This document shows positions 17,809 to 57,622 of a stretch of 64,000 nucleotides of DNA, in pieces; position 1 is the first letter of the stretch; each line of letters starts with the position of its first letter. Both the position numbers and the translations under genes were made by a program. The stretch is taken from IMG/VR virus record IMGVR_UViG_3300049255_000405, one strand, 5' to 3'. Below the pieces are notes generated by a model, which was given only the letters and a program-made list of their open reading frames with translations, made no database searches and had not been told where the DNA came from. The DNA comes from a virus.

Positions 17809-17873
17809 ATCTCCTTGCCCCTCAGTGTAAGGGGTGTTAGATTGCGCCTATTGGCGTTCCACACGGAGGATTC

Positions 17874-18581: not shown

Positions 18582-18585
18582 GACT

Positions 18586-18660: not shown

Positions 18661-18756
18661 CGGAAGGCGAACTGCACGAGATGCTCTTCTGCTCGGCTTC
18701 TAAACACGAGGCCGAGCGAAGGCATACTTCGTAAAGCTCGAACCGCGTTACGTAAC

Positions 18757-38191: not shown

Positions 38192-38217
38192 CACCCGATC
38201 TTACAACTATCGAAGCG

Positions 38218-41114: not shown

Positions 41115-41741
41115 TCACTTGGGCTTCTGAACGAGGCCCATGCGCTCGGCAAGAGAGCGCATGACAGCATCACGCTCCTGGTCGTCCAGTTCATCCCAAG
41201 TCTTGCCGGCAGCGGAAGCCTTCGGCGAGGCGAGCTTCGCCTCGAGGCGAGCTTTACCGATCTGAGCCGCCGGGTGATGCTGGATAGCCGGAACGATGGT
41301 CACCGTAGGCTGGGCGGGCACCGTATCCGCAGGGGCGACCCCAGGAACGATGGAGCGATTCACCAGCAATTGGTTGCCGGACACGTTTGTCTTGGTGGCG
41401 ACTTCGTACACGTGAGTGACGGTTTCGAAAACGACGGCGACACGCTTGCCGTAGTCGGCATACCAAAGATCACGAGTGGCCTGGTCCATGGCGTGGCTGA
41501 TGTAAGCCGAGGGGAGCGCTGCCATCACCAAGGGCTGAGACGGGTCCTTGGACCAAAGACTACCCTGGATGGCATCTCCGAAATCGGAGAACGACACATC
41601 ATTCGGGAGCGTGTACTTGACGCCCGCCACGTAGAACACGCCGGCGCGAAGTATGTATTGCTGGCCAACAATATCGATGCGGTAGTTCAGATCCAACTGA
41701 CCGGCCGCGCCGACACCGTTATGGTAGTAGATCCCGAACAT
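41115..41741 (-). CDS. Hypothetical structural-module protein
   Basis: Track ORF, contiguous with structural genes. Confidence 0.5.
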   Translation of the reverse strand: MFGIYYHNGVGAAGQLDLNYRIDIVGQQYILRAGVFYVAGVKYTLPNDVSFSDFGDAIQGSLWSKDPSQPLVMAALPSAYISHAMDQATRDLWYADYGKRVAVVFETVTHVYEVATKTNVSGNQLLVNRSIVPGVAPADTVPAQPTVTIVPAIQHHPAAQIGKARLEAKLASPKASAAGKTWDELDDQERDAVMRSLAERMGLVQKPK

Positions 41742-44700
41742 TATTGTCTACCCGTAATGATGAAGGTGAAACCGCCGGACTGATTCGCGTTGTTGAAGTT
41801 AATGGACGTTGAGCTGATACCGCTCGATAGAACTGCCTGAGCCTGACTGAACGAAGACGTGTACATCGAGGCGAGCTGCAGGGACGGCCCCAGACCAGAC
41901 ACGAAGAAGAGCGGAGTGATTGCACAGGCAATCGATCCCTGACCGGCTCCAGTATCTGTGTTCGACGGGTTGGCATAGAAGTTAATAAGGATCTGTCCGC
42001 CAAACCCTCCGCCACCGTTGAAAATGGCATAGCTGTGCACGTTCCAGGAGTCGTACTCCTGGAACGTGGGGTGTCCACCACTGTCAGTAGTGACAAAGAT
42101 CGTGCCCCACGCCTTGATGACGTTTGCGCCGTTGACGGTGTTCTGAAGCGCCGCGGCGTTGTATGTGTCACCCAGGTGGGTGAGAGCGATGCCGTTGTCG
42201 CTGAATCCCTGGATGCAGGTCCAGCTCCCGTCCGACCAGTTTCCCCCGGGCTGGAAAACTGAGAAGTTGTACATGTACCCGGCCCCGTAGTTGCTACTCC
42301 CGAAGAGGAAGTTGCTTCCAGACCAGACGGTCATGAAGGCGTTCTGTCCAGGAACGTCAGGAACCCACACGCTTCCGTTCCAACTGGCGTTAGTTGTGAT
42401 GGCATACCAGTCGTTGTTGCCGGGCCCGTATCCGCCGTTGCCGGAAAAATTCCAGCCTCGGTAGTGGCGAATACAGACTCCTTGGCCTTGACCACCGAGA
42501 GCCCACGTGATGTGACCGTTATTCCCATCCGGAGCGACGGCGGCTGCGTTAGCAATTTGCACCGAAGTCCCAGAGATCACGTTGACGATCTGGAAATGCC
42601 CGTTGTTGTTGCCGTTGGCAGCTCCAGTGAAATACAGGTACATGCCCTGCATGTTGTTCGTCATACTGGCGAGGCCCGTGATCGTGGCGAGCCCGGCAGA
42701 CACAGCCGAAATGGTGCAACCTCCGTTGCGGCCAGCAGCGAACAAATAATCCGAGCCCTGCGGCCCAGTGCCGTACTCCGCTACCAGGATGCGCATTCCG
42801 CTGTCCGGGTGTGCCGGAACTGAGATGCGCGCGGCCAACTCAGAGGCGAGAGTCGCGGGAGCCAGCTCTCCGAGACGGAGATTGTTCGCCGTAACGATCC
42901 CGGCGTTGCCCTGGTTTCCGTTGATGGAGAACGGGAGAATGCTGTTCGGAGCGCTCGCGGGACCGTTTGGGGCCCACGTCGCCCACGGCGTGTTGTCGGC
43001 GGCTCCGCGGTGCCAATGGAGGAATTGGCTGCCGAAACCGCCGCCCGCGAGCATTTGAACAGCGTTGGCAGCCACGCCGTTGACGTCTTTCGCCCACGCA
43101 ACACCATTCCAGGCCGCGTTGATCGTGAACCAATAGTCCGTCTCGTTGGACGGATTCATCTGTGCGTAGATGCGGATGCTGGGGCTCGCGGTGGGGCTCT
43201 GAGCCTCCCAAATCAGAGTGAAGGTACTCGGCGCGGTCTGCGCGAGAAACCGCGGGATGAGATTCTCGTTGCTGGCGGTCGATTGCGTGCCGGCCAGGAT
43301 GAAGGCCAGCGCTCCGTTGAGCGCTCCGGACGGGTCGAAACCAACGGGCGGCGTGCCCGTACCGAGCGGAGAACCAGCAAACGTGAACGGGCTGGCGACC
43401 GCGGGGCCCGCGTAGAGAAACTCCATTTTGGGCTGGCCCGTGACGGTGCTCTGCCCGATGTAAACGGCGGACGCCGATTGCCCGGCCGTATCTTTCCTCC
43501 AGTTGATGGGGAACCCGACAGGACCGTTCCAATACGCGTTGCAGGTGACCCACAGTCCAGCTTGCGAGTCAGCGAAGAGCCGCATGATCTGCTGAGCATT
43601 GGAGCCGGTCAGACCAGCGACCGACACTCCCTCCCACAGGAGGGTCATGCCACTGCCTTGCGAACTCGAGAACGGCGTAACGATGCGCGGCGTCTGGTTC
43701 GCCTGCAGGTACCCGAGGTTACGCGCTCCGAGTGTGAGCGAGTCGATGCTCAGCACGTCGACGATCTTGCGCAGCAAGTCTGGATTGATCTTGCCGTCCG
43801 GACCGAGAAGCGCCGAGATGCCAAGATTTTCCGTGCCCGCCCCAGGCTGTGCCAGCTGCGGGTCGTCGGTGGCAAGGAACTTCTCGGTGGTGGTCTCGAT
43901 GTTCTCCGGCACCTCCCCGAACTCCATCATCTCGGGGATCATCGCGTGCACGACGGGAGGCGTGACCGCCTCGATGCCGATTGCCGTAGTACCCGTGACG
44001 CTGGTGCCTGACAGACCGAGCTTCGCCATCACGGCAGAAGAACCCGAGACCGTGATGCTCGCCGGAGTTCCGTACGGATCGTCGGTGGTGTGGTCGGGGC
44101 AAACGAAGGCGATTTCTTCGACCGTCGTCGCATTGCCGAATGGCTTGGCCACCACGGAGCCCGAATAAACTCCAGGCACAAGGCCGAGTTTGTCGAGGGT
44201 AGTCGTGAAGTTGTTGGTCGGCAGCGGGCTGGCGCCGAAGAGGTCACCCGCCATGATCTGCACGGTGGAACTCGGACCGCTCGTCAGATGGCTGGTGATT
44301 TGGAGAGTCCCGAAATTCGAAACCGCAGCCGATCCCTGGGCAGCCTGTCCGGCCGTGCTGATGGCGGCGTTGATGAAGTTCACTAGGTCGGATGTCGAGT
44401 AGACGCCCGTGGTCGGATAGATCTGAATCGGCGTGTTGCCGTTCAGAACGATGAAGAACATGTCCTGGCCAGTGATGAACTGCCAGGGCCCAGCAACAGC
44501 ACCGATGACGCCGCCACGACCGGCCTCGGTCCCCGCCGGGAATCCAGCTCCAGCGGCTGCCGCGTTCCAGGCCGCATTCACGGCGCTGATGACGTCTTGC
44601 GCACCGGTCGGCGCCACGCCAAACGTGATAGTGAGGACGTAGGTCTGGATGCTGAAGTTGTGGGACGGATTCGGATAGAGCGCCGGATTGACCGTATTGA

Positions 44701-45607
44701 CCGTGACCGTGAAGCTGTCGCTCGTGGTCAGCGAAGAAAAGTTGCCGCCACTCGTGATGACCTTGCCGGGTACGGAGCCCTGACGGACGTACGACACCAC
44801 GAACTTCGGATTGTTCGAGATGCCCGGGATTTGCTGCAGCCGTCCGTAGATGGACTGGCCAGGCGGATAGAGCGGTATGTTTCCGAGGCCGCTGACGTTG
44901 ATCTGAATGGGGGTCTGCGTGATCGCCGGCGACGAGTCCGGGTTGCGGAGCTGGATGAATCCGCCGAAACCATCCGTCGACTGCGTGATGATGCCGCGCA
45001 CCGGCGAAGAAATGCCCGTGACAGTGGCCGTGTTTCCTGGCGCCAATCCGAGCGCAGTGCACACGCCGACCGTGACGTCATTGACCGTCAGGAAGGCAGA
45101 AGAGCCAGTCGTGTAGCCCGAGGGACCCGCAGACTGGAGAACGAGCTGGCCGTTGATGTTTTGCGCGACCGGAGATGACGGGTTGACTCCGGCGACAGTG
45201 AGGGCCGCGTTGATACGCGCTGCCACCTTGGACGTCGTGATGTACGGATTGCCGCCGATGTTGACGACGTCGCTCGGTTGGAACGTGATGAGGACAGGGT
45301 TGCTCGAGTTGACGTTCGGGAGCGTGATGGTGAAAGACGCGCCCGCGACGACGGGCGACACGAACGGACCCTGCGCGCCGATGATGAACGCCGACGCATC
45401 CGACTCCGCGCCGCCGGGCGTCTGCGTGATGGTCTGCTGCAGGAATTCGTTGTAGTAGTTTTCCGAGATCGTGTTCTGGATGGTCTGAACAGTGCCGCCA
45501 GGAACGTCCGGCGTGCCGAACGGAATGGGCGTCGCCACACCGATCGTGTCGATCCGGGTGAAGTACGACCGCTGGTCCTTGATCTGTTCTTTGCGCGGCT
45601 GAGTCAT
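41741..45607 (-). CDS. Large virion structural protein (1288 aa), beta-rich, tail/baseplate-like
   Basis: Long S/T/G/N-rich ORF with 1-nt overlap to the downstream gene. Confidence 0.7.
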   Translation of the reverse strand: MTQPRKEQIKDQRSYFTRIDTIGVATPIPFGTPDVPGGTVQTIQNTISENYYNEFLQQTITQTPGGAESDASAFIIGAQGPFVSPVVAGASFTITLPNVNSSNPVLITFQPSDVVNIGGNPYITTSKVAARINAALTVAGVNPSSPVAQNINGQLVLQSAGPSGYTTGSSAFLTVNDVTVGVCTALGLAPGNTATVTGISSPVRGIITQSTDGFGGFIQLRNPDSSPAITQTPIQINVSGLGNIPLYPPGQSIYGRLQQIPGISNNPKFVVSYVRQGSVPGKVITSGGNFSSLTTSDSFTVTVNTVNPALYPNPSHNFSIQTYVLTITFGVAPTGAQDVISAVNAAWNAAAAGAGFPAGTEAGRGGVIGAVAGPWQFITGQDMFFIVLNGNTPIQIYPTTGVYSTSDLVNFINAAISTAGQAAQGSAAVSNFGTLQITSHLTSGPSSTVQIMAGDLFGASPLPTNNFTTTLDKLGLVPGVYSGSVVAKPFGNATTVEEIAFVCPDHTTDDPYGTPASITVSGSSAVMAKLGLSGTSVTGTTAIGIEAVTPPVVHAMIPEMMEFGEVPENIETTTEKFLATDDPQLAQPGAGTENLGISALLGPDGKINPDLLRKIVDVLSIDSLTLGARNLGYLQANQTPRIVTPFSSSQGSGMTLLWEGVSVAGLTGSNAQQIMRLFADSQAGLWVTCNAYWNGPVGFPINWRKDTAGQSASAVYIGQSTVTGQPKMEFLYAGPAVASPFTFAGSPLGTGTPPVGFDPSGALNGALAFILAGTQSTASNENLIPRFLAQTAPSTFTLIWEAQSPTASPSIRIYAQMNPSNETDYWFTINAAWNGVAWAKDVNGVAANAVQMLAGGGFGSQFLHWHRGAADNTPWATWAPNGPASAPNSILPFSINGNQGNAGIVTANNLRLGELAPATLASELAARISVPAHPDSGMRILVAEYGTGPQGSDYLFAAGRNGGCTISAVSAGLATITGLASMTNNMQGMYLYFTGAANGNNNGHFQIVNVISGTSVQIANAAAVAPDGNNGHITWALGGQGQGVCIRHYRGWNFSGNGGYGPGNNDWYAITTNASWNGSVWVPDVPGQNAFMTVWSGSNFLFGSSNYGAGYMYNFSVFQPGGNWSDGSWTCIQGFSDNGIALTHLGDTYNAAALQNTVNGANVIKAWGTIFVTTDSGGHPTFQEYDSWNVHSYAIFNGGGGFGGQILINFYANPSNTDTGAGQGSIACAITPLFFVSGLGPSLQLASMYTSSFSQAQAVLSSGISSTSINFNNANQSGGFTFIITGRQ

Positions 45608-45619
45608 CGAATGTCCCTA

Positions 45620-48600
45620 TCAGAACAAGAGGTACCAGAATTCGACGATGTCGGTCGTCAGAAGAGCTGGATTGCTCCCGGAGACGATGTATGTGACGGT
45701 TTGGTTGGTGGTGCCGCCAACTGTGTAGTTGAGCCCGTACTGGAGTTTGACGCCGTTGAGGAACATCTGCACGGCGGTCGGATCGAGCGGGCGGTTCGGA
45801 AGGGTGAAGGTGAGCTGCCCGTCCGAGGTGACCGGAAGGGTGATCTGCTCCTGCGAGTTGAGGGACACGTCCGACGACCCGAAGAACAGGGGGTTGTCGA
45901 AGATGTTCGTAACGAAAAGGGCCGGCGGAACCGGGAGAATGCCGGTGTTGACGTAGCCACGGCGCTTCTCCAAGGGCTTACCCAGGAGACGGTACCTGTC
46001 GACAGCGGTGAACCCTTCGTTGGTACCGGCAGCCGAGTGCGACACGTTCGTATCGCGGAAATAGGCCGGCACCGCCTGGGTGACGACGAACATCTGCAGC
46101 TCGTTGCCCATGTGGATCTCGGTGGAGCCCACAGACTCCGGCTGAGAACGCACAAGGAATGCGGAGCCGACGAGAAGCGACCCGGCGTTGATGTTCGGGC
46201 GGACTTTCGGGAACCTCGAGGAGATCGGACCACCGACCCAAGGTGGCGTGACCGACCAGGCCGCACCTCCACGCGTCGTCTTGAACACCGTCGTACTGGC
46301 AGGATTCGCGGTGCCGTCGACTCGAATGACGGCTTCGGAACCAACGCCAGTCGTGCCCGATGTGTTGCCGCAGATGAACTCCGTGCCCTCCCAGGTCGAT
46401 TCGCCAGGCGCGCTCGGGGCGAGCGACGCCTCGTAGTTCTGGAAGGTGAACGTGCCGACTGCGTTGGCGCCGACACCCGTGGAGTTGATCTGCTGGTAGA
46501 GGGTCTTGCCGACGAAGTCCTTGTCTCGGAAGTAGATGCCCATCGGCAGTTGCGAAGTGGCACCTGCGAATTCCGGCGGGACGAAGTTGTCGTAGACCGG
46601 ATCCAAGCCACCGATCTTGGTCGGTGGGCGAGTCGCGACACCTGTGGGCGGAGTCGGTGAGTTAACGACCGGAAAGAGCTGGTCCGACCAGTCCTCGTAA
46701 CCAACACGGTTCGCCGAGAAGCGACGTGCGAGATCGAGCAGGGTCCCGGCGTAATCCGGCGGGTTGTTCGGTGCCTCAAACGTGTCGAGGAGGGGTAGCG
46801 GCTGCGAACCCGAGAGACGACCCGTCCCGAGCGACATCACGAAGCTCGTGGACGCGAGCACCTCGAAACCGGTCTCGTTCGGGAGAGCCAGGCTCGAGAT
46901 GGGACCCAGCGGGCTCGTGAAGATCGACGTGGCTTCTCCGACCGTCAGCGGTCCGAGCCTGTAGAGGTCGTCCGAATAGGCGTTCTGAGTTCCGAATGGA
47001 TCGCCTTGGTACGGCTGGCGGCTGTAGTAGATCGTCAGCTCGTTGTTCGAAGCATTGCTCGAGAGCGGCGCCGGCGCGATGATGCCGATGGTGCCGTCCT
47101 GCGAGGTCGAGAACTGATCCTGCAGGATGACTCCGCCGCCCGTGTTCTTGGCGACGCAAACGCGTCCGTTGGTCTGCAGGAAGCCTCGATCGAATCCGAA
47201 CAGGACGCACTCGACAACGAACTGGGCATTGTTGAAGTTCGTACCCGAAGGTGCCTTCGTGAAGTCCAGGCAATCGGCCGAGAGGATGAAGTATGGGTCT
47301 CCGTTGGCGTCCACGTTGAGCAGGACGGTCGGGCCGTCGTAGCTGTCGTGCAGGAGGTTGACGTCTGCTCCCGGCTGGCCAACGAACTGGCGATTGTTAT
47401 TGAACGGGCTCGAGATGGGCTGCACCGCCGATCCCTGACGGAGATAGACGCCGGTGATGCGCGCCGGCGCGAGGAACGGCGGGAACTGAATGCCCTGGAA
47501 GGGGCCGCCGTTGGCCGACTGGAGAGAGTTGTTCGTGTACTTGGTACCGAAGATGGAGAGAATACCCGCCTGCGTGCCGTAGGTCTCGCCAACATTTGGC
47601 GTGACGATGTAGTAGCCCGGCGCGCTCGGATACGAGACGATATTCTCGTTGTAGCTCGAGTTGTTCAGGTTCGGGCCTTCTTGCGCCACGAACATGAAAT
47701 TCAGGCCGCTGGGAAACACGGCGTTGGTCGTCGCCTGCAGAGGGATGTGATGCAGACCCGGCCGCGGCAGATACTCCCACGGGATCTCGAAGTAGAGGCT
47801 GTTGACACCGTGGTAGAACAGGTTGAGGGCGTCGATGGTCGTCTGAGGCACGACCGGGTGCACGATATTGACGCCGTTCTGGTCCAGGCTCGGCATCGCG
47901 CCCTGGTACTGGATCGTCGGATTGAAGTACCAGTTGAGCTGCTGGCCGTTGCGCGCGAGAAGCTGCGGGACACGGACTTCGCGGTACGGAGCCGCGTAGA
48001 CGGTCTTGCTGCCCGGGTCGACCATCACCTCGGAAGTCCGCGCGAGATTCCGGTTTACACCGGTCTGCACGTACGGCGAGTCGCCAAGATACGTCGGGAT
48101 CATGCGCGAAATGCCGGACAGGCCGCCGCGCAGAAGGGTCTGCGTCGTGTTGGACGCCGACCCGCGGTACCAAACCGTGTGGATGTAGTCCGGCTTGTGA
48201 GACAAGCCGCGACCAGCTCCGTAGACGACGGCGAAGTCGATGTGCATCACGACATTCGTGACGTAAGGAATCGCCGTGTTGCCCTGGAGAGCGTCCTTGA
48301 ACTCCTGCAGTTCGGTGTCGACGCCACCGCTTTGGAAGCGGATGACGAGGTTTCCGTTCACATCGGTGGTGACGCTCAGGCCTTGACCGCTCTTGAGGAC
48401 CTTGTTTCCCTGCGTCGGGAAGAGAAGATCCGGGTTGGAAGTCGTAGGCGCGGTCGTACCGGCCGACGTGACGACCTCGCCAGTCGTCATCGTGCCCGAA
48501 CCGCCTGTGCACCCCGTGAAGCTCGAGCCGGAGATGGAGGTGTAGTTGACCGTCGAGCCGTTGATGTTGATGGTTCCGCCGCTCGAGGAGAAGCCCGAGG

Positions 48601-50470
48601 TCGAAGCCACGAAGATGGTTGCCTGAGGCAACGTCTGGCCGTTCGAACCTGCGGCGATCGTCGTCGATGGCAGCGATCCGTTGGGGTCCGACGTCATTCC
48701 TTCGAATCGGATGACGACGGCGTCCGGGTCCTCGGAAGGCAACACGAACCTGACTTGATCCGAGTCCGAGCCCGGCATACCCGCGGCGAATGGGGAGAGC
48801 TGGATGGTGATGGAGTCGCCGTTCCACCACGATGGGTAGAGGCCGCCCGACAGTCGGTTACCGGGCACGTGGATGGGCGGGGTGCCTGTCCACAGAACCT
48901 CGACGTTGTAAGGGGCGACCGTGAACTGCAGCGGCGTGTCGATGAGCTGCGAGTTCGAAGGAACGACCACCGGGACGTTGAAGCGCTGCGTGGTCACCGC
49001 ATCCGAGAACATGCGGCGGTTTCCATCCGGAGCATCGAGTCTCGTCAGCCCTCCGACGAACACTGAAGAATCGGTGATGCGGTCGCCGTAGAAGGTAACG
49101 GGTCCTGCCGAGTTCGTGCTTCCGAAACGCTTCCAGGTCGAGCGCAGGTTGCCCTTGAGAAGCTCGATGAAGTTCGTCTTGAGGATGCTGTCGTAGTCGA
49201 ACTTGTCCGCCACCGAGTGGCGCATGTCGAGAATGTCAGTCGCCGCGATTTGGTCGGCGAACAGCCCGTCCGGGCGAATCGTGTACTCGATGAGGGGAGT
49301 ACCCGAGTTGTGCGCGCGGATCGTCGTCTGGAGCTGGCCGCGGTCGATGGTGCAGGTGAACGACGTCGGCGAGTTCTGCACGACGTTGTTGATGCGGATG
49401 ATCTCGTCGTTGAGGTAAAAATACGCCTCGCCAAACGAGTTCATCGTCTGCAGCACGGTGCCGGCGATGCTGTTGATGGTGAAAGACGTGTCGGTCAGCC
49501 CCATTGCGGATTGGAGCGCGAGAGAGGCCGTGTACATCGTCGCGTCGGAACGGGAGATGGCGACGCTATTGCGATTGAACGCGCCGGCGAGGTTGCCCGT
49601 GTCGGAAAACCCTGCTCCGTTGCGACGGAAAACGGTGCAGATGGGGATGGCATAAACGTAGCCGTCTGAGGTTCCGAAAGTCGCCGGGTCGCCGGTCCCC
49701 GCACGCCAAAGGCCCGGGTCGCCGAGCGTCTGGCGCATGTTGGTGAAGGGGACGCTCGAGGGCTGCAGCAGGAGGCCCTGCGCGAACACGAGACTCGGGT
49801 CGAACCCTTCTGGATACTGCGCGATGTTGATTCCCTGGACGACGCGGATGCGGTACTGGACCTGCACGCGCTTCGTGGTCGGGAAGTTCATGTCCGGATC
49901 GATGAGGTCGTCCGGGATGTAGCTGAAACCGCCTTCGACGTTGCCGAATCTATAGATGAACCCGCGCTGCGGCTTGCCTGGTGCGACACCCGGAGGGGCG
50001 GGATCCACGTCGATGACTGCCTGCCACACCTCGAGGAACACGAACTCGGCGATGTTGCCGCCCGTCGAGGTCGACGGAGGATTGAGCAGGATTTTGTTCC
50101 AGGTGTCGACGTCGTCGGCTGCCAGCGGGGGCTCGCCGGTCTCCGTCCCTGCCACAGGGATAGGCCACCCGTTGACGACAGCCCACGTGAGGTTACGGAC
50201 CTCGCCCGGAGTGTTGCGACCGAAATAGAACAGGTTCGAGTTGTTGACGTTCGTGAAGAAGTCGGCCTTTGGATTGGCCTCGTTCATCAGCCATCCGGAA
50301 GGCATCTCGGCGCGGAGAGCCTCTGCACGCGATTCCCAGTCGACAAGCGAAACGAGGTTCAGCTCGGAGTCGAGCGGTGGCTTGTTCGCCTGGAATACAA
50401 CGACAGCAAATTGCTTGTCGCGGTCGTCCGTGTACCGGGAGACTCCGGGGCCTAGGGGATTAGTCGGCAT
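45620..50470 (-). CDS. Giant structural protein (1616 aa), paralog of the 913 aa protein at 59782..62523
   Basis: Shared blocks: LEVW..; RVQ(V/I)QYR(I/Y)RV(V/I); (S/V)DGY(V/M)YA(I/V)PIC(T/A)VFRRN. Confidence 0.8.
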   Translation of the reverse strand: MPTNPLGPGVSRYTDDRDKQFAVVVFQANKPPLDSELNLVSLVDWESRAEALRAEMPSGWLMNEANPKADFFTNVNNSNLFYFGRNTPGEVRNLTWAVVNGWPIPVAGTETGEPPLAADDVDTWNKILLNPPSTSTGGNIAEFVFLEVWQAVIDVDPAPPGVAPGKPQRGFIYRFGNVEGGFSYIPDDLIDPDMNFPTTKRVQVQYRIRVVQGINIAQYPEGFDPSLVFAQGLLLQPSSVPFTNMRQTLGDPGLWRAGTGDPATFGTSDGYVYAIPICTVFRRNGAGFSDTGNLAGAFNRNSVAISRSDATMYTASLALQSAMGLTDTSFTINSIAGTVLQTMNSFGEAYFYLNDEIIRINNVVQNSPTSFTCTIDRGQLQTTIRAHNSGTPLIEYTIRPDGLFADQIAATDILDMRHSVADKFDYDSILKTNFIELLKGNLRSTWKRFGSTNSAGPVTFYGDRITDSSVFVGGLTRLDAPDGNRRMFSDAVTTQRFNVPVVVPSNSQLIDTPLQFTVAPYNVEVLWTGTPPIHVPGNRLSGGLYPSWWNGDSITIQLSPFAAGMPGSDSDQVRFVLPSEDPDAVVIRFEGMTSDPNGSLPSTTIAAGSNGQTLPQATIFVASTSGFSSSGGTININGSTVNYTSISGSSFTGCTGGSGTMTTGEVVTSAGTTAPTTSNPDLLFPTQGNKVLKSGQGLSVTTDVNGNLVIRFQSGGVDTELQEFKDALQGNTAIPYVTNVVMHIDFAVVYGAGRGLSHKPDYIHTVWYRGSASNTTQTLLRGGLSGISRMIPTYLGDSPYVQTGVNRNLARTSEVMVDPGSKTVYAAPYREVRVPQLLARNGQQLNWYFNPTIQYQGAMPSLDQNGVNIVHPVVPQTTIDALNLFYHGVNSLYFEIPWEYLPRPGLHHIPLQATTNAVFPSGLNFMFVAQEGPNLNNSSYNENIVSYPSAPGYYIVTPNVGETYGTQAGILSIFGTKYTNNSLQSANGGPFQGIQFPPFLAPARITGVYLRQGSAVQPISSPFNNNRQFVGQPGADVNLLHDSYDGPTVLLNVDANGDPYFILSADCLDFTKAPSGTNFNNAQFVVECVLFGFDRGFLQTNGRVCVAKNTGGGVILQDQFSTSQDGTIGIIAPAPLSSNASNNELTIYYSRQPYQGDPFGTQNAYSDDLYRLGPLTVGEATSIFTSPLGPISSLALPNETGFEVLASTSFVMSLGTGRLSGSQPLPLLDTFEAPNNPPDYAGTLLDLARRFSANRVGYEDWSDQLFPVVNSPTPPTGVATRPPTKIGGLDPVYDNFVPPEFAGATSQLPMGIYFRDKDFVGKTLYQQINSTGVGANAVGTFTFQNYEASLAPSAPGESTWEGTEFICGNTSGTTGVGSEAVIRVDGTANPASTTVFKTTRGGAAWSVTPPWVGGPISSRFPKVRPNINAGSLLVGSAFLVRSQPESVGSTEIHMGNELQMFVVTQAVPAYFRDTNVSHSAAGTNEGFTAVDRYRLLGKPLEKRRGYVNTGILPVPPALFVTNIFDNPLFFGSSDVSLNSQEQITLPVTSDGQLTFTLPNRPLDPTAVQMFLNGVKLQYGLNYTVGGTTNQTVTYIVSGSNPALLTTDIVEFWYLLF

Positions 50471-50545: not shown

Positions 50546-51217
50546 CTATCCGTAGATCAGGTACCAGTCCGAGACGTGGTACGGGATGGTGGAGTTGTTG
50601 ATGAACTTGAGCCGGAAAGTCGCGGGATATGTGATGTTTGTCGGCACCGCGGAATCCGGCGTCGGAGTCGCGATGTCTGCGAAAGGCCCGGTCGACTGGC
50701 AAACGCTGACCGAAAACGTCGCGTTGTCGAAGTTCTCGAATGAACTGGTGCTAGGGTTGTACCCATAGAGGAGCTTGCTGATCGGCGTCGGGGACGTCGG
50801 ATTCTGAACATCAACCGGAGAACGGAAGAGGCTGAATCCGCCGTAGTGGAGGCACGTTTGGTGCGCACCTGCCGCAATGGAGATCGGGTTCGTGAGGAGG
50901 GTGCCTCCAGGATAGATAACCGTCCGCTTGTTCGGTCCTAGCTCGATACCTGAAGAATTCACCGAGTCGACGTTGGGACTCGAGATGAGTTCGTCGGAGA
51001 TGACGTTCGGGAAAGGGATGTTCTGCGACGTGAAAAAGACCGCCCACGCGTTCGATTTCTGCGTGATGAGGTCCGAAATGCTGTTGTCCGTGTTCGGAGA
51101 AACGGTCCCTATCTGCGGAGGGATGTCGATGACGTAGTGGCCACTGATGTCGAACAGCAGCGGCTCTTCGTAGACGCCGTGGATCGTATTCGTGGCGGGG
51201 TCGATAAGGACCTTCAT
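50546..51217 (-). CDS. Hypothetical structural protein, S/T/N/P-rich
   Basis: Track ORF. Confidence 0.5.
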   Translation of the reverse strand: MKVLIDPATNTIHGVYEEPLLFDISGHYVIDIPPQIGTVSPNTDNSISDLITQKSNAWAVFFTSQNIPFPNVISDELISSPNVDSVNSSGIELGPNKRTVIYPGGTLLTNPISIAAGAHQTCLHYGGFSLFRSPVDVQNPTSPTPISKLLYGYNPSTSSFENFDNATFSVSVCQSTGPFADIATPTPDSAVPTNITYPATFRLKFINNSTIPYHVSDWYLIYG

Positions 51218-51282: not shown

Positions 51283-51702
51283 CTACCCGCTGGATGCGAC
51301 GTCGTGAACAGTGAAGATTCCCTGATAAAAATAGACCGTGAGCGGGTAGACTGCGCTCAAAGGAGACACCTGCACCGAAATGCTTCCCGTGGAATTTATG
51401 ACCCTGTGAATCCTGATGCTTCCGTGACCTGAAATGGTCTGGACCACTCCTCCGCCAGAGATGGGTTCCCCACCGAGAGCGAACTGGACGAGCAACTGTA
51501 TCGGCTGTTCGACGAACACACTCAGTGCAACATGGGCGAGAAACGTGTTTCCAAGACTAGGCGAAATCCCAATCCCGTTGGTAGTGGCGTTGGAGAAGTC
51601 ACCCTGGTTTTCCCATGCGATATTCTGAGGGGTCCCGTTCGTCCAGATGTACGCGGCGTCCGGATCAGTGAGTCGGAACAGGTTGGAAAGCTCGCCGTAC
51701 AT
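51283..51702 (-). CDS. Small beta-rich protein, member 1 of three tandem ~140 aa paralogs (possible C1q/TNF-like tip domain)
   Basis: N-terminal MYG(E/Q)L and C-terminal YF(Y/F)QG(I/A)F(T/S)V shared by the 3 ORFs. Confidence 0.5.
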   Translation of the reverse strand: MYGELSNLFRLTDPDAAYIWTNGTPQNIAWENQGDFSNATTNGIGISPSLGNTFLAHVALSVFVEQPIQLLVQFALGGEPISGGGVVQTISGHGSIRIHRVINSTGSISVQVSPLSAVYPLTVYFYQGIFTVHDVASSG

Positions 51703-51708
51703 GCTGCC

Positions 51709-52134
51709 TCACGTATCGAGGTCTTGGATGGTGAAGGCGCCTTGATAGAAAGACGCCGTGCACGGAAGCGAGGGCAGAGACACCAAGTTCACCCCGAGTC
51801 TCACGGAATCGCCAGTCCTTAGGGCCACCATCTTTTGCAGGCTCACCACTCGAGACCCGCCGAAAACTGAGCATGTGATCCCAGCGATATTCCCTCCCGC
51901 TGTGGAGAGAAACTGGAAAAAGAGTTGTATCGGCTGGCCCGTGTAAACAGACACGCTGGCCTTGAGCAGAAACTCACCGGCACCGGACACAACGAATCCA
52001 TTGTTCGACACAGTGACACCCGACAGGTCACTGCTTGACGTCCACGGGACTGCTTGTGTCTTGTATCTTGTCCAGGTGAGAGTTACCTCGGCGGGGTACA
52101 TCAAGCTGACGTCGTTGTAGAGCTGGCCGTACAT
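51709..52134 (-). CDS. Small beta-rich protein, paralog 2
   Basis: As above. Confidence 0.5.
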   Translation of the reverse strand: MYGQLYNDVSLMYPAEVTLTWTRYKTQAVPWTSSSDLSGVTVSNNGFVVSGAGEFLLKASVSVYTGQPIQLFFQFLSTAGGNIAGITCSVFGGSRVVSLQKMVALRTGDSVRLGVNLVSLPSLPCTASFYQGAFTIQDLDT

Positions 52135-52571
52135 CAGTTTATTCCTTCGACAGAAAAAGCTCCCTGGAAGAAATAGACTGTAATCGGACTAGGAATCGGA
52201 TTCGCAATGTTCACTTGCACAATGGCGGTGTCTTCCCCCGCAAGATAGCCCAGTTGCTGCAAGGAGACAGTCGTGACGCCCGGAAAAGCGTTTACGGTCA
52301 CACCTGCAACGGGCAGGACCACACCGTCCGTCTGAAATGAGAACACCAGTTCGACGGGCGTCGGCGAGTAGAAACTAATGCTCGCAGTGAGCGAATATTC
52401 GATCGTGGGACCGATTTGGAGACCGTTCCCATTCCGGTTTATCCCGTTGAACGAGCCGGAATTTCGCCACGGCACGATCTGAACCGCCGGAAGCGATACC
52501 CACGCGAGAGCTGCTCCCGGGTCGGTCATCGACCAGTCGCTGTACAACTCACCGAAAGTTCCGGGGTCCAC
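52134..52571 (-). CDS. Small beta-rich protein, paralog 3
   Basis: As above; GELYSDWSM...YFFQGAFSV. Confidence 0.5.
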   Translation of the reverse strand: MDPGTFGELYSDWSMTDPGAALAWVSLPAVQIVPWRNSGSFNGINRNGNGLQIGPTIEYSLTASISFYSPTPVELVFSFQTDGVVLPVAGVTVNAFPGVTTVSLQQLGYLAGEDTAIVQVNIANPIPSPITVYFFQGAFSVEGIN

Positions 52572-52600
52572 GCCCGGATGAGCGATAGGAGCGCTAGAGA

Positions 52601-54166
52601 CTAGAAGCCGGTGATCTGATACTGCAGCGTCTCGGACCCGACCGTGTGCGAGTACACGTTAATGTAGCTCTGGAACGGTGAATTCTGGAACGCAGCCGCC
52701 CAAAGAGTTCCGGCAGCAGTCGATGATTTGACGGCGTTGATTTGTCCGGTGACGCCGGTGTAAATGGTCGAAACTAGCGTGGCCGAGGAGTTGTATCGAG
52801 CCACCCACTGATAGGTCGACAGTCCCGGCCCATTGATCTGCACGAACATCGTGTTGTCGATGGGATCGTAGTCCAACCGGCCCGTGATGAGAGTCGTCGC
52901 ATACGGGGCTGGCGAAGTAGGCAGTGTGATGTATGGAGACCCGTCGGCAAAGATCTGAGCGGTTGATCCTCCGAAAGTCTGGTACGGGGAATTCGGATTT
53001 CCGCCAATAGACCACATGACGTGGCCAAAAATGTAGTCCACCCAATAAGTAGTCGGGTACGTGTTGGCGCTGTTGTATTGAGTGGACGAAACCGTGGCTA
53101 GGGTTGAGGCATTCACCTCGAATAGCACTTCATAGTCACCAAAGAAGAAGCTGATGTTGTCAGCTGTGCCTCCCCAAAGGTGACCAGTGCTGGAGTTGTA
53201 CCCCATATGGCGGAGGTTCCAGTTGAACCCCGTGTACGTGTCGGTATTGGCTGCAACTGGAGTGACTGCAGTCGGAAACGCCGTGATAGCAGCTGCCGTA
53301 TTGAACTGCAGGATGTTCGCGCCGGAAGTGGGGTGGATGTTTATGTCGCTGACGCAAGTATAGAGAGAGCCACCCGTGGCGACTGCTGAGTCCGGAAAAA
53401 TGACAGCATATTGAACGCCACCATAGAGTGGATTCATGTACCCAACGACATTGAGCGTCGACTTGTCGATGACTAGGATGTACACGGTGCTACCCTGGCC
53501 AGATGGTAGCGCATACACATAGTTCGCATCGGCTGCGAAGGCTGCCGCTCCGCGATTCGAACCAGTCCAACCGGCGGATACGGGCACGTTGATCACCGCA
53601 TGGGTGGCGCCCGTCGTCCCATCCAAAACTGGAATGACGGCAGTCGTTTGCTCGACATCAGCGACGTACATCAAGTTGTTGACTGAGTCGTAGTACAAGT
53701 CCTGGATGAATTTGAACGGCGTAAGTGGGAATGGCGTCGGTTGAACAGCCTTTGTGATGAAAACGTCTGCGGTGACGTTCACGACAGCCTGAGTGCTGCC
53801 GGTGTTGAACACCATCTGCAGGCGGTCAGGACTGGATGCTGCAGTCACTGTGAAGGTCCAGGAGGACGCGGAAGAACTTCCGAACTGATCAACAGTATCC
53901 GAGGCACTAACTACCGTGACGCCGGCGATTCGACTTACCGCGAACCTCTGGACGAAGGACTGAGAGGCTGTCGAAGTGAGGATGTAACCGTTTGCGCTCA
54001 CGCGGATTTCAATGGTTCCGCTGTAGCCACTCGGCAGGACAAAGTACGTGTTGATCGGCCCGACAGCACCAGAGGGACCGGCGTTGACCAGTGCAATAGA
54101 CTCTCCGACCGCGTTGCCGGGTGTGGACCCGGTGAGAGTGACGTCGGGGAGAGGCTGGAAAGTCAT
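52601..54166 (-). CDS. Tail fibre / receptor-binding protein paralog 1: shared N-terminal anchor domain, beta-propeller (YVTN-like) C-terminus
   Basis: MTFQPLPDVTLTGSTPG N-terminus shared with the next two ORFs; repeats of the form NYVYALPSGQGSTVYILVID. Confidence 0.7.
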   Translation of the reverse strand: MTFQPLPDVTLTGSTPGNAVGESIALVNAGPSGAVGPINTYFVLPSGYSGTIEIRVSANGYILTSTASQSFVQRFAVSRIAGVTVVSASDTVDQFGSSSASSWTFTVTAASSPDRLQMVFNTGSTQAVVNVTADVFITKAVQPTPFPLTPFKFIQDLYYDSVNNLMYVADVEQTTAVIPVLDGTTGATHAVINVPVSAGWTGSNRGAAAFAADANYVYALPSGQGSTVYILVIDKSTLNVVGYMNPLYGGVQYAVIFPDSAVATGGSLYTCVSDINIHPTSGANILQFNTAAAITAFPTAVTPVAANTDTYTGFNWNLRHMGYNSSTGHLWGGTADNISFFFGDYEVLFEVNASTLATVSSTQYNSANTYPTTYWVDYIFGHVMWSIGGNPNSPYQTFGGSTAQIFADGSPYITLPTSPAPYATTLITGRLDYDPIDNTMFVQINGPGLSTYQWVARYNSSATLVSTIYTGVTGQINAVKSSTAAGTLWAAAFQNSPFQSYINVYSHTVGSETLQYQITGF

Positions 54167-54168
54167 GG

Positions 54169-55626
54169 TCAGTATTGGGTGATGGTTGCCAGGAAGGATT
54201 CTGTCCCTATGCCTGTTGAATAGATATCGATGTGTCCTTTGGCGGGCGAAAAGTCGTACTGCCCGACCCAGAGCCCCAGGGGCTCAGCCGCAGCGACGTA
54301 AGCGCGGCCGTTCACGCCTGCATTACCGAAGATGGAGGCTTGCGTGTTGGAGCTTGCAGCAATGCGCCAGATGTTCTGAGCACCGTAGCTGTTACCATTG
54401 AGCATGGCTGCAAGCACGGTGTCATGGTATGGGTCGTACGAGATCGCCGTTGGTGCGGGAAGACCGGAGGCAGGTGCAGGAGCACTCGCGCTCAAGAAGA
54501 TGAAAGTTGATAGGTCACGAAGCACCGAGCCTGGCGTGCTGTCGAAGTTGTAGTTCGGAGCGTTGAAATTACCGTGACCGATGCAGAACCAAACCGACGA
54601 GTCCGCGAAACAGCCGTGGTAGGTGAACACGCCTTCGGTTGTCGGATTGGTGTCGATCGAGTACGTGGTGACGGAGCTTTCAGACAGAGCACTTGTGAGC
54701 TGCACCAAAACAGCCTGTGACGACGAGACGTAACATCCTGCCCACAGAAGGCTGTCGTTCGGGTCCCAAACAATCCCGCGGAAATCGCGGCTCACAGTCG
54801 TATTGGCATCCGGCGACGCGGGTGTCGGGTATGACGAGATGACCGACGAGATGGTAAACCGGTAGATGATGTTCCCGGACAACGAGATCGCGTACAAGTG
54901 CGTTCCGTCCGAAGCCAGGTCGTAACCACCGAACCCCGTGGAAAGGTTGGCGATGCCGATGATGGAGCAGTGCACAGGGTCGATGATGAGAATGTGCTTC
55001 TGGAACCAATTGCTAGCGTAGATGTACGTGCCGTCACCAATGATCCGTGTGGCACCGGTCGTCCAGCTGGCACTGGTGGCGTTGACAACCGCTTTCGGGC
55101 TGCGAGTCGCGGCCTGGAAAACCGGGATATCTGGATTCGAGAGATTCGGGTCTCCAATCCACATATTGTCGTTGGTGGAATCGTAGAACAGATCCCAAAC
55201 CTGAACGAACGAGCGGACCGGCGGAGCAGTCCCAGGCTTGATGGACCTCGTGACCTGTATGTCGGCTCGCACGGATGTGTAAGCCTGGGTACTGCCGGTC
55301 GTGAATGTGAGGGCGAATCTGTCCGGACTCGAGCCCACTGAAGCGGTCACCGTCCACGACGAGGCACCTGCATCGCCAAGCTGATCCAGCGTATTGGACG
55401 CGACGATTGTCGTCACACCTGAATCTCGGCGGACACAAAACCTACGAATGAAAGACTGGGAAACAAACGCTCCCGAGATGATGCCGCTGGCAGCTACCCG
55501 AACTTGGAGTGTGAAGCTCTCGTTGTCGGTTAGGGTGAAGTGAGGCAGCAACTCCACAGACTCGCCCGTCGCGAATCCAGGTGTGGACCCGGTGAGAGTG
55601 ATGTCGGGAAGCGGTAGAAAGCTCAT
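54169..55626 (-). CDS. Tail fibre / receptor-binding protein paralog 2: shared N-terminal domain, different beta-propeller C-terminus
   Basis: MSFLPLPDITLTGSTPG...SSWTVTASVGSSPDRFALTFTTGSTQ; THLYAISLSGNIIYRF repeats. Confidence 0.7.
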   Translation of the reverse strand: MSFLPLPDITLTGSTPGFATGESVELLPHFTLTDNESFTLQVRVAASGIISGAFVSQSFIRRFCVRRDSGVTTIVASNTLDQLGDAGASSWTVTASVGSSPDRFALTFTTGSTQAYTSVRADIQVTRSIKPGTAPPVRSFVQVWDLFYDSTNDNMWIGDPNLSNPDIPVFQAATRSPKAVVNATSASWTTGATRIIGDGTYIYASNWFQKHILIIDPVHCSIIGIANLSTGFGGYDLASDGTHLYAISLSGNIIYRFTISSVISSYPTPASPDANTTVSRDFRGIVWDPNDSLLWAGCYVSSSQAVLVQLTSALSESSVTTYSIDTNPTTEGVFTYHGCFADSSVWFCIGHGNFNAPNYNFDSTPGSVLRDLSTFIFLSASAPAPASGLPAPTAISYDPYHDTVLAAMLNGNSYGAQNIWRIAASSNTQASIFGNAGVNGRAYVAAAEPLGLWVGQYDFSPAKGHIDIYSTGIGTESFLATITQY

Positions 55627-55628
55627 GA

Positions 55629-56681
55629 TTAGAACAACGCAATCTTGTAACGGGCGCTCGCGTAATTCATGTATTGCGCGATTTCAGCTGCATTGATGAC
55701 ACGAGGCCACAGGATTTGCTCGGCGACATAAGACTGGTTGCTGCCAAGATTTTGATCGAGACTTGATGTGATGGTGGTTGGGGTCGTACCACTCCCCGTC
55801 GCTCGAACAGCTGTCCCGTTCACGTAGAGACTGACCGCACCACCCGAGGTGAATGTGCCAATGATGATACCCGGCACAGCTCCGAGGGTCACTCCAGTAT
55901 ACTCGACGACGCTACCTTCGTAGATGTATGGGTAGCAAGGAGACGACGAAACGCCTGTGCTTGGACCTGTGGTCTGCCAGACGAAGGTCCCTCCCGCCAG
56001 TCCGCCCCTATAAACCGAGGCAATCGTCCAGCCAACGGCTGAATTCAGGGAGAGCGCACCTGAGAACAGCTCTCCGAGAACGGCGGCCGGGGATCCGATT
56101 GAAGCTTGATGGTTGAATGTTGAATCGGACGCGTTCCATAGCGGCTGTTGCGAAGGCGTCGACTGTGACAGGTCTGTGTGGAAACTGGTCTGATCGGCCC
56201 AAAACGACACGTTGCCGGCGTTCAGAGTCACACCAAGATCGGCTCTGTGAGCTTCGATGGGGCCGACCGGGATCGAGAGCAGGAAGTTGTTCGGTTCGAC
56301 GGTGACCCGAATGTCGGCCGTGACGTTGACGATGGACCTCGTGCTTCCAGTCGTAAACGTGAGTTTGAATCTGTCAGGGCTCGTCCCAACAGTCGCAGCC
56401 AACGTCCATGAGGAACCACCGGAATCTCCGAAAGCATCCTGGGAATCGCTGGCGACAATAGTAATCACCCCCAAGCTGCGTCTCACGGAGAACCTCTGCA
56501 CGAAGGATCGGATCGTCCTCGTGGCAGGATAGACATAGCCTGCAGCCACCACGCGCACTTCGAACGTCAAGCTATGATTGTCAGCGGGCGTGAAGTGCGG
56601 CAAAAGTTCGACAGATTCGCCCGTGACAGAACCCGGAGTGCTGCCCTTGAGAGAAATGTCGGGTAGCGGCAGGTAGCTCAT
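55629..56681 (-). CDS. Tail fibre / receptor-binding protein paralog 3: shared N-terminal domain, LamG/ConA-like lectin C-terminus
   Basis: MSYLPLPDISLKGSTPG; C-terminal SLYVNGTAVRATG...QILWPRVINAAEIAQY (LamG-like); ATGA overlap with the upstream gene. Confidence 0.7.
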   Translation of the reverse strand: MSYLPLPDISLKGSTPGSVTGESVELLPHFTPADNHSLTFEVRVVAAGYVYPATRTIRSFVQRFSVRRSLGVITIVASDSQDAFGDSGGSSWTLAATVGTSPDRFKLTFTTGSTRSIVNVTADIRVTVEPNNFLLSIPVGPIEAHRADLGVTLNAGNVSFWADQTSFHTDLSQSTPSQQPLWNASDSTFNHQASIGSPAAVLGELFSGALSLNSAVGWTIASVYRGGLAGGTFVWQTTGPSTGVSSSPCYPYIYEGSVVEYTGVTLGAVPGIIIGTFTSGGAVSLYVNGTAVRATGSGTTPTTITSSLDQNLGSNQSYVAEQILWPRVINAAEIAQYMNYASARYKIALF

Positions 56682-57619
56682 CAGACGATCTTGTAGTGAC
56701 TGCCCGTCCATTGCCAGTCGATAGACTGGCTGTTCACGGAGATTTGGACTGACGTCGCGAAATTCCCTTGATTGTTCGGATCCTCGATGGGACGGCTGGC
56801 TTGACTCTGGACCGTGATCGGATAGGTCGCAGCGAATCCTGTGTCATCAGTCACTCGGAAGAGCTGCTGGGTTGTGGGCAGGGTGAGGTCCGGAGCGTTG
56901 ACTGTCGTGGTAGCCACGCTCGTGTCTACGATGGCCTGCAAGTGAGAGGAGTCGAGAGTGCCGGTCGATGGGTTGGCGTTCCCAACATTGATGAAGCCGA
57001 CCGGAACACCGATAACAGTTCCTCCTCCACCAGAGGCATTGGAAGAGATGACCTTCCACTGGTCATAAGATTCCACGAACTCCCACGTAACGACTTGCGA
57101 ATTCGTGTGGATGGTAACGCTGGACGAATAGGTTCCAGGACTGTTCGGGTCCTCGATCTGGAATCCGTTGCCGTAGACCGTGATGTTGTTGGTTGCAGCG
57201 TTATTGTTTGCGTCAGCAACCGTGCAAACCCAGTCGATGGTCCCGTAAGTCGTCGCATCTATCAGGTTGACTGTCACCGGTCCTGACAGAGTGTCCACCA
57301 TCGCTGTCAGCGACGTTGGCGTCAGCGTGATGGTGCTGGAGCTGAGAGTCTGACCTGCTTGACGGCCTCCATTCGAGAATCCGAGAGGCCGGTTCATATA
57401 GCGAATGCTATTGAAATTCCTGTCTTCCCATGCGCCAGTGTAGAGGGCAATGGTGTTGATACCGAGGCCCGACTGGTAAATCGGGACAACGACAGTTCCG
57501 GAACTGTCAACTGCTATTCCTCGAGGAGATGCACCCAATCCCGGAGACTGTGTAGTAAACAGAATCTCCCCCGTCTCGGGATGTATGCGATAGACTGTCG
57601 AGGGGCTTGCGGCAGGCAT
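56681..57619 (-). CDS. Fibre-associated beta-rich protein with an internal duplication
   Basis: Two ~45 aa repeats (...IEDPNSPGTYSSSVTIHTNSQVVTWEF.. / ..IEDPNNQGNFATSVQISVNSQSIDWQW..). Confidence 0.55.
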   Translation of the reverse strand: MPAASPSTVYRIHPETGEILFTTQSPGLGASPRGIAVDSSGTVVVPIYQSGLGINTIALYTGAWEDRNFNSIRYMNRPLGFSNGGRQAGQTLSSSTITLTPTSLTAMVDTLSGPVTVNLIDATTYGTIDWVCTVADANNNAATNNITVYGNGFQIEDPNSPGTYSSSVTIHTNSQVVTWEFVESYDQWKVISSNASGGGGTVIGVPVGFINVGNANPSTGTLDSSHLQAIVDTSVATTTVNAPDLTLPTTQQLFRVTDDTGFAATYPITVQSQASRPIEDPNNQGNFATSVQISVNSQSIDWQWTGSHYKIV

Positions 57620-57622
57620 GGT

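What the first reader, a model, noticed from the sequence alone, without database searches (positions are those of the whole stretch)
45620..50470. Two giant paralogous structural proteins (1616 and 913 aa)
The proteins at 45620..50470 and 59782..62523 share their N-terminal ~450 aa in recognisable blocks (EFVFLEVWQAV / DLVILEVWRAL; RVQVQYRIRVV / RVQIQYRYRVI; SDGYVYAIPICTVFRRN / VDGYMYAVPICAVFRRN). The longer one then carries about 1100 extra residues. Large duplicated baseplate- or fibre-like proteins separated by a fibre cassette are unusual and may form alternative distal tail structures.
Basis: seen in the sequence. Interest (0 to 1): 0.55.

Follow-up and report, generated by a model that had tools for sequence, protein, structure and literature searches.

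The report
Paired giant tail proteins of huge phages
The two big genes really are ancient duplicates that share a roughly 410-residue N-terminal module; almost every relative found lies on a very large phage-type contig, where the pair usually brackets a swappable set of probable host-recognition genes, and they are most likely scaffold proteins at the tip of the phage tail rather than alternative fibres.

Summary
A (45620..50470, minus, 1616 aa) and B (59782..62523, minus, 913 aa) share an N-terminal module: 34% identity, E=1e-34, plus a second block at E=1e-10. The module covers about 410 aa of B and about 505 aa of A, because A has a ~90-aa insertion.

The pair is not an oddity of this window. 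The module defines an uncharacterised family with 1432 clusters at 50% identity, no Pfam model and no solved relative. It splits into a short B-type (~860 aa) and a long A-type (1300-2200 aa). In 51 of 79 IMG/VR loci both lie on one strand within 10 kb. The gap runs from 35 nt to 8 kb and its content varies. The window's eight cassette genes are essentially absent from the other loci.

Best reading: two constitutive baseplate-periphery scaffolds that carry variable receptor-binding proteins. Virion location is inferred, not shown. This is a new family of a known kind; interest is moderate.

The parts
45620..50470 (-). Gene A, 1616 aa: long (A-type) member of the family
   Evidence: ORF, translation. 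More than 219 orthologues of about 1545 aa, at least 50% identical over the full length. N-module HMM score 520 bits.
48956..50470 (-). A residues 1-505: shared N-terminal module, including the insertion
   Evidence: BLASTP against B, E=1e-34 and 1e-10. HMM envelope 3-505.
49277..49543 (-). A residues ~310-398: ~90-aa insertion that distinguishes A-type from B-type
   Evidence: Gap in B in alignment A1. Insertion at HMM column 281 in 73 of 143 family members. Hits phrog_1101 'tail protein', E=7e-8. The fold was not modelled here.
48431..48670 (-). A residues 601-680: lineage-specific extra small domain, Gly/Ser/Thr-rich
   Evidence: 92% and 70% gaps in 166 orthologues over this stretch. Modelled with pLDDT around 80-92. 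Two other family proteins (P0011, 883 aa; P0098, 1623 aa) carry a precomputed Pfam E1_FCCH hit whose position I did not map, so assigning that domain type to this stretch is only a guess.
45956..46186 (-). A residues 1429-1505: segment weakly similar to the C-terminus of B
   Evidence: hhalign score 43.2, P=4.4e-4, probability 34%; reversed controls 16-18.
45623..45853 (-). A residues 1540-1616: C-terminal beta domain like the N-terminal anchor domain of T7-type tail fibres and tailspikes
59782..62523 (-). Gene B, 913 aa: short (B-type) member of the family
   Evidence: ORF, translation. Orthologues of 820-1000 aa. AF2 model pLDDT 77, pTM 0.81, almost all beta.
61210..62523 (-). B residues 1-438: shared N-terminal module
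   Evidence: HMM envelope 3-438, 498 bits. It is the better conserved half of B.
59791..60009 (-). B residues 839-911: C-terminal segment weakly similar to A1429-1505
63177..63833 (-). 218-aa conserved partner gene upstream of B (phrog_5417)
   Evidence: The 218-aa start is the gene call on the near-identical contig L008. Present in 79 of 79 IMG/VR loci, immediately upstream of B in the top-scoring loci. Homologue of phage G gp190 (profile E=2e-37), which follows the gpJ/gpI-like baseplate genes gp188/189, and of Tunturi 5 gp222 'virion structural protein'. Weak, sub-threshold Pfam BW3TFN hit.
62560..63177 (-). 205-aa gene between the 218-aa gene and B; unknown function
   Evidence: ORF. No PHROG or Pfam hit. 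No BLAST hit in the 79 IMG/VR loci.
51283..59782 (-). Variable cassette of 8 genes (719, 312, 360, 485, 521, 145, 141, 139 aa): probable receptor-binding set
   Evidence: Lower GC, 0.55-0.57 against about 0.61-0.62 in flanking windows. The 360/485/521-aa proteins share a ~130-aa N-terminus. The 485/521/719-aa proteins share a C-terminal region with weak NHL/lactonase beta-propeller hits. The 145/141/139-aa proteins are paralogues. One weak BLAST hit in the 79 related loci and nothing else.
50546..51217 (-). 223-aa conserved gene immediately upstream of A
   Evidence: It is the only conserved family in the B-to-A gap: 46 members including this one. Unrelated to the 218-aa family.
41741..45607 (-). 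1288-aa fibre-like protein immediately downstream of A
   Evidence: The N-terminal 300-730 aa are conserved in 25 loci and the remainder varies. The counterpart in L002 carries Peptidase_S74 and tail-spike PHROG hits.
41115..41741 (-). 208-aa gene whose start overlaps the 1288-aa gene's stop
   Evidence: ORF. No PHROG hit.

Best explanation
A and B are the two ancient paralogues (long A-type and short B-type) of an uncharacterised family of tail-tip proteins found almost only on very large phage-type contigs. Both are built on the same ~410-residue N-terminal module. I infer that this module docks each protein onto the periphery of the baseplate wedge, next to the conserved 218-aa partner protein, so that every virion carries both. 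B is a compact all-beta protein whose faster-evolving C-terminal half faces outward. A has the same ground plan expanded by inserted domains and a large conserved body, and it ends in a T7-fibre-type anchor domain that can dock to, or be docked by, other fibre proteins. The genes that follow each of them are the variable parts that recognise the host: the 8-gene cassette after B and the 1288-aa fibre after A. A and B would then be the constant scaffold (a 'tail fibre network') onto which interchangeable receptor-binding proteins are hung. Shown here: the paralogy, the age of the duplication, the conserved synteny with a variable gap, the conservation pattern, the anchor-like C-terminal domain, and the tail-fibre gene position of distant members. 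Inferred: presence in the virion, the baseplate docking, and who binds whom.
Confidence: 0.6

Rival explanations
1. A and B are themselves two alternative receptor-binding fibres. They share only an N-terminal attachment domain and use different distal parts to bind different receptors, giving the phage a dual host range.
For: A shared N-terminus with dissimilar C-terminal parts is the classic pattern for paralogous tailspikes. B's C-terminal half evolves faster than its N-terminal half and gives faint jelly-roll / lectin-like fold hits. Tunturi 5 gp247 is annotated 'tail fiber protein'.
Against: A is uniformly about 50% identical over 1600 residues across more than 200 orthologues, with no hypervariable tip. 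The C-terminal regions show weak collinear similarity rather than being unrelated. B models as a compact globular protein with pTM 0.81, with no coiled coil, beta-helix or intramolecular chaperone domain. The variable genes are those lying between and after the pair.
Confidence: 0.2
2. A and B are core wedge proteins: divergent gp6/gpJ/TssF-like or gp7/gpI-like subunits. The two paralogues would occupy the two non-equivalent positions that a homodimer fills in T4 or in type VI secretion systems.
Against: The rmsd of those hits is 12-31 Å over 103-177 residues, so they are not a fold match. There is no Baseplate_J Pfam hit. Fictibacillus, phage G and Tunturi 5 all encode separate recognisable gpJ/gp6-like wedge proteins in addition to the family member (PMC8570332).
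Confidence: 0.08
3. They are not tail parts at all. They could be large head or neck decoration proteins, ejected proteins, or non-virion proteins that interact with the host.
Confidence: 0.1

Closest known systems
Paralogous tailspike or tail-fibre sets with a common attachment region (CBA120 TSP1-4, K64-1/RaK2 multi-depolymerase branches, T4 gp10-gp11-gp12 'tail fibre network')
   Different: The shared ~410-aa module has no detectable relative among these proteins. A and B are conserved scaffolds, not enzymes or beta-helix spikes. The duplication is ancient and fixed across a whole clade.
N-terminal anchor domain of T7-type tail fibres (T7 gp17 residues ~1-150; P-SCSP1u gp28; LME-1 orf22; Carin-1 Dpo31)
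   Different: In A the domain is at the extreme C-terminus of a 1616-aa protein, and the related cultured phages are contractile-tailed. There is no Pfam Phage_T7_tail hit.
P2 gpH / PBSX XkdV-type tail fibres encoded directly after baseplate genes J and I
   Same: Distant family members occupy that gene slot in Fictibacillus and Chengkuizengella. The Chengkuizengella protein starts with a weak tail-collar-fibre N-terminal hit.
   Different: A and B have no tail-collar or gpH Pfam domains. They are 2-4 times larger, and in the window they are not adjacent to recognisable J/I genes.
Bacillus phage G gp211 and gp420; Tunturiibacter phage Tunturi 5 gp247
   Same: These are the only members found in cultured phages. 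Phage G also has a shorter copy (gp211, 1178 aa) and a longer copy (gp420, 2010 aa).
   Different: Only 25-29% identical in the module. In phage G the genes are dispersed, and in gp420 the module starts at residue 277. None has an assigned function.

Membership tests
New N-module family (this work; no Pfam model or PHROG for the module itself) | Full-length match to the ~409-position N-module profile, including the LEVW, RVQxQYRxRV, DGYxYAIPxxxxRRN and RPDGxxxDxIxxxDxxDLR blocks | tested here: met
   A scores 520 bits (residues 3-505) and B 498 bits (residues 3-438). The invariant columns are listed.
New N-module family: A-type versus B-type | A ~90-aa insertion at profile column 281 with length over 1300 aa (A-type); no insertion with length about 820-1000 aa (B-type) | tested here: met
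   A carries the insertion and clusters with the 81 A-type sequences. B lacks it and clusters with the 59 B-type sequences.
T7-type tail-fibre anchor domain (Pfam Phage_T7_tail) | Fold of the ~70-residue beta domain | tested here: met
T7-type tail-fibre anchor domain (Pfam Phage_T7_tail) | Significant sequence match to the family model | tested here: inconclusive
   No Pfam hit at E<0.1. A profile of A1525-1616 hits two PDB fibre or depolymerase chains at E=1.2e-3 and 5.9e-3.
T7-type tail-fibre anchor domain (Pfam Phage_T7_tail) | Located at the N-terminus of the fibre, docking it to the tail | tested here: not met
   In A the domain occupies the last ~77 residues.
Baseplate wedge gp6 / gpJ / TssF | Baseplate_J sequence signature and matching fold | tested here: not met
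Trimeric tailspike or fibre with beta-helix and/or Peptidase_S74 chaperone | Beta-helix or coiled-coil shaft; C-terminal intramolecular chaperone | tested here: not met
   No such Pfam or PHROG hits in A or B. B models as a compact multi-domain beta protein. Peptidase_S74 is found only in the L002 counterpart of the gene after A.
P2 gpH-like tail-collar fibre | N-terminal Phage_tail_fib / collar domain | tested here: not met
   Absent from A and B. Only a sub-threshold hit in the distant relative P0317.
Virion structural protein (any) | Detected in purified particles | not testable with these tools
   The phage G proteomics tables are not held, and the papers that are held do not mention gp211 or gp420.

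The most novel reading that the evidence does not exclude
The ~410-residue N-module is a fold with no solved relative. A and B use it to form an obligate hetero-oligomeric ring or arm around the baseplate, specific to huge phages. This would create a standard 'socket' whose intervening genomic slot works as a hot-swap site for host-recognition cassettes. On this reading the A/B pair is a general architectural innovation that helps explain how giant phages change hosts.
Probability: 0.2. Interest if true: 0.6.

Novelty: new member of a known kind. Interest (0 to 1): 0.38.

Why it matters
Most genes of huge phages have no assigned function. This work defines a large family with two conserved paralogue types and gives it a testable role at the tail tip. 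The family has 1432 clusters at 50% identity and is detected almost only on large phage-type contigs. The work also identifies the interval between the two genes as the place where lineage-specific, probably host-recognition, genes accumulate. That makes the conserved pair a practical landmark for locating receptor-binding genes in uncultured huge-phage genomes. It also names two cultured phages, phage G and Tunturi 5, in which the prediction can be tested.

Tried and rejected
- Pfam and PHROG scans of A, B, their neighbours and 34 relatives found no family for the N-module. The only hits were phrog_1101 on A's insertion and scattered weak hits.
- PDB sequence searches with A, the B profile, the A profile, the 218-aa protein and the 2080-aa protein found nothing usable.
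- I tested whether the small genes that precede B (218 aa) and A (223 aa) are also paralogues, which would imply duplication of a two-gene unit. hhalign found no similarity, so this was rejected.
- I tested whether the upstream 2080-aa protein matches phage G gp184-189 or the Tunturi 5 tail proteins, by tblastn and by profile. There was no hit.
- I looked for virion proteomics of phage G gp211 and gp420. They are not mentioned in the held texts, the supplements are not held, and González et al. 2020 is not held.
- Megablast of the A gene's DNA against the phage collection found no match.
- Promoter and terminator scans of 45-64 kb were not above the shuffled expectation.
I could not model A's N-module or any complex, or search single domains.

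Full report
**1. The observation**

A is 45620..50470 (1616 aa, ATG start) and B is 59782..62523 (913 aa, ATG start). The quoted peptide blocks are all present in the translations.

BLASTP of A against B gives 34% identity over 342 columns (A9-325 / B23-349, E=1e-34). A second collinear block covers A399-499 / B332-428 (36%, E=1e-10). Between the two blocks A has about 90 residues that B lacks.

The start codons are supported by orthologues that begin with the same residues (MPTNPLG... and M..K/NLGP.VSQ...). The similarity is therefore real, long and well beyond chance.

**2. The genomic setting**

The window is a piece of a large phage genome.
- It encodes a DNA polymerase (24761..27676), a DnaB-type helicase (33736..35262) and an SNF2-type helicase (36122..38194).
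- A run of large minus-strand genes follows.
- tblastn of A and B against about 50,700 phage records finds only very large phages: an uncultured 485-kb phage (LR745208, two places), Tunturiibacter phage Tunturi 5 (309 kb, gp247 'tail fiber protein') and Bacillus phage G (498 kb, gp211 and gp420).

The gene order on the minus strand is as follows. The two genes in brackets lie beyond the window end and were read from the near-identical contig L008.
- [2080 aa], [275 aa]
- 218 aa (63177..63833)
- 205 aa
- B
- 719, 312, 360, 485, 521, 145, 141 and 139 aa
- 223 aa
- A
- 1288 aa
- 208 aa

**3. A large family with two old branches**

A profile of the shared module was searched against 1.84 billion representative proteins. 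It finds 1432 clusters at E≤1e-3 and 613 at E≤1e-30. In nearly all of the best 150 the module is at the N-terminus. Lengths fall into two classes: about 840-900 aa with a module span of about 410, and about 1300-2200 aa with a module span of about 500.

When module identities are clustered, the sequences fall into an A-type group (n=81, median 1760 aa) and a B-type group (n=59, median 863 aa).
- A and B from one genome fall in different groups (winA-winB 36%; L002 pair 37%; L004 pair 39%).
- Orthologues from different genomes group together (winA-L002_A 72%; winB-L002_B 48%).
- The ~90-aa insertion at profile column 281 is present in 73 of 143 sequences, about the number of A-type members.

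The duplication is therefore ancient, and both copies have been kept.

Profile-profile comparison of the regions after the module gives weak but collinear matches: B839-911 ~ A1429-1505 (score 43.2, P=4.4e-4), B522-551 ~ A738-767 (31.7) and B675-706 ~ A1130-1161 (23.3). Reversed controls score 16-18. B is probably homologous to A along its whole length. A would then be the same ground plan enlarged by insertions and a C-terminal extension. This point is suggestive, not proven.

**4. The pair and the gap between them**

A scan of IMG/VR found 452 relatives, on contigs of up to 529 kb.
- In 51 of the 79 loci kept, a second module-bearing ORF lies on the same strand within 10 kb. It is A-type and mostly downstream of B.
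- The distance from the end of B to the start of A ranges from 35 nt to 7.9 kb, with a median of 3.1 kb.
- About ten loci have a gap of about 710-790 nt, just enough for one gene of roughly 216-223 aa.
- That 216/223-aa family is the only conserved occupant of the gap (46 members including the window's gene). The remaining gap ORFs form 106 clusters, 69 of them singletons.

The window's eight cassette genes have essentially no homologues in the other 79 loci; there is one weak hit. The cassette has lower GC, 0.55-0.57 against about 0.61-0.62 in flanking windows.

Inside the cassette:
- the 360/485/521-aa proteins share a ~130-aa N-terminus;
- the 485/521/719-aa proteins share a C-terminal region with weak beta-propeller hits;
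- the 145/141/139-aa proteins are paralogues.

By contrast, the 218-aa gene is in 79 of 79 loci (immediately upstream of B in the top-scoring ones), and the 2080-aa gene is in 69 of 79.

However, the constant feature of the clade is the pair, and the cassette is the variable part.

**5. What the proteins look like**

Neither protein has a Pfam domain. Neither the proteins nor their family profiles match any PDB sequence.

*Protein B.* It was modelled with a 34-sequence alignment and gives a confident, compact, almost all-beta model (pLDDT 77, pTM 0.81).
- Foldseek against the PDB finds nothing at E<1e-3.
- The N-module therefore has no recognisable solved relative.

*Protein A.*
- It is about 50% identical to 166 orthologues along its whole length. 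The exception is A601-680, a lineage-specific inserted domain.
- B's N-terminal half is conserved at 40-55%, and its C-terminal half at only 13-34%.
- The C-terminal 1117 residues of A modelled only in part (pLDDT 59; good for A500-1150 and A1540-1616).
- A profile of A1525-1616 independently hits K64-1 depolymerase S2-4 (residues 118-189, E=1.2e-3) and LME-1 orf22 (residues 4-58, E=5.9e-3). This places the domain at the extreme C-terminus of A.
- A's insertion (residues 310-398) hits phrog_1101 'tail protein'.

**6. Evidence for where they act**

A scan of one genome from each of 185,579 species found only 16 relatives. Almost all are on MAG contigs that look like binned phage DNA, and two of those contigs again carry two copies.

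The one isolate genome, Fictibacillus gelatini DSM 15865, is informative. Its gene order is:
- a phage-protein N-terminal domain (PF18352);
- sheath initiator / gp25;
- Baseplate_J (E=5e-33);
- a 234-aa gene (weak DUF2612 hit);
- a 100-aa gene;
- a family member of at least 1282 aa (131.9 bits against the module profile, with the A-type insertion).

In Chengkuizengella axinellae, an 838-aa relative directly follows a Tail_P2_I gene. This relative has the module core at 99 bits and a sub-threshold tail-collar-fibre N-terminus.

From established knowledge of P2-like myoviruses (gene order V-W-J-I-H), this is the slot of the tail fibre gene.

Three further observations agree.
- In Tunturi 5, a contractile-tailed phage (PMC11924767), gp247 lies between the tape-measure gene and the baseplate-wedge genes.
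- The 218-aa neighbour of B is homologous to phage G gp190 (profile E=2e-37). gp190 follows gp188/gp189, which the literature describes as gp6/gpJ- and gpI-like baseplate proteins (PMC8570332, PMC12484599).
- The gene after A (1288 aa) has a conserved N-terminus and a variable remainder, and its L002 counterpart carries Peptidase_S74 and tail-spike PHROG hits.

**7. Interpretation**

The best-supported reading is that A and B are constitutive components of the baseplate periphery (the 'tail fibre network'). They dock through the common N-module and carry the variable receptor-binding proteins encoded after them. I put this at about 0.6.

The rivals are:
- A and B are themselves alternative receptor-binding fibres (0.2). 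A's uniform conservation and B's compact model argue against this.
- They are divergent core wedge subunits (0.08). This is contradicted by separate gpJ homologues in the three genomes where context is readable.
- They are not tail parts at all (0.1).

No member has been shown to be in a virion.

**8. Novelty and score**

The kind of system is well known: large paralogous tail proteins with a shared docking module, and constant adaptors carrying variable receptor binders. Examples are CBA120, K64-1 and T4 gp10-12.

What is new is the family itself. It has no Pfam model, no solved relative, and no PHROG for the module. Also new are the ancient fixed A/B duplication, the anchor-type domain at the C-terminus rather than the N-terminus, and the use of the B-to-A interval as a variable slot.

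A specialist would find this useful rather than surprising. I rate interest at 0.38 and file it as a new member of a known kind.

Noticed in passing
window 51283..59782 (minus strand): The cassette contains three paralogous proteins with a common ~130-aa N-terminus (360, 485 and 521 aa) and three paralogous small proteins (145, 141 and 139 aa). This three-plus-three pattern could mean three receptor-binder/partner pairs. The region has lower GC than its flanks and almost no homologues in 79 related loci.
   Followed up: partly
beyond the window end; L008 70..6312 (upstream of window 64000 on the minus strand): A 2080-aa protein with no Pfam, PHROG or PDB match is conserved upstream of the 218-aa gene and B in 69 of 79 related loci. 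It is another giant conserved protein of the same module, with unknown role.
   Followed up: partly
window 63177..63833 (minus strand): The 218-aa protein (phrog_5417) is in all 79 related loci (immediately upstream of B in the top-scoring ones). It is homologous to phage G gp190 and Tunturi 5 gp222. It has only a sub-threshold hit to Pfam BW3TFN (baseplate wedge 3 tail fiber network component).
   Followed up: partly
window 18574..18661 (plus strand): ARAGORN calls a single tRNA-Ile with the unusual anticodon AAT. It lies inside a listed 289-aa ORF (17834..18703).
   Followed up: no
window 59782, 56681..56711 and 41741: The stop of B overlaps the start of the 719-aa gene. The 312-aa and 360-aa genes overlap by 31 nt. 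The stop of the 1288-aa gene overlaps the start of the 208-aa gene. This suggests tight operon-like coupling through the whole module.
   Followed up: no
L103 2947..3080 (Fictibacillus gelatini) and proteins P0319-P0327: The first ~45 residues of the Fictibacillus family member (MPYTKKLWQDRIKDAQGN..GTPVNAGNMNRIEQGIADA) are 55-80% identical to the N-termini of otherwise unrelated ~850-aa proteins in Peribacillus and Aeribacillus genomes and several unnamed metagenomic contigs. This looks like a short exchangeable baseplate-docking peptide.
   Followed up: partly
L006 10639..16671 (phage G gp420): In phage G gp420 the family module starts at residue ~277 rather than at the N-terminus. A few metagenomic members (for example P0176, P0284, P0306) show a similar offset.
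   Followed up: no
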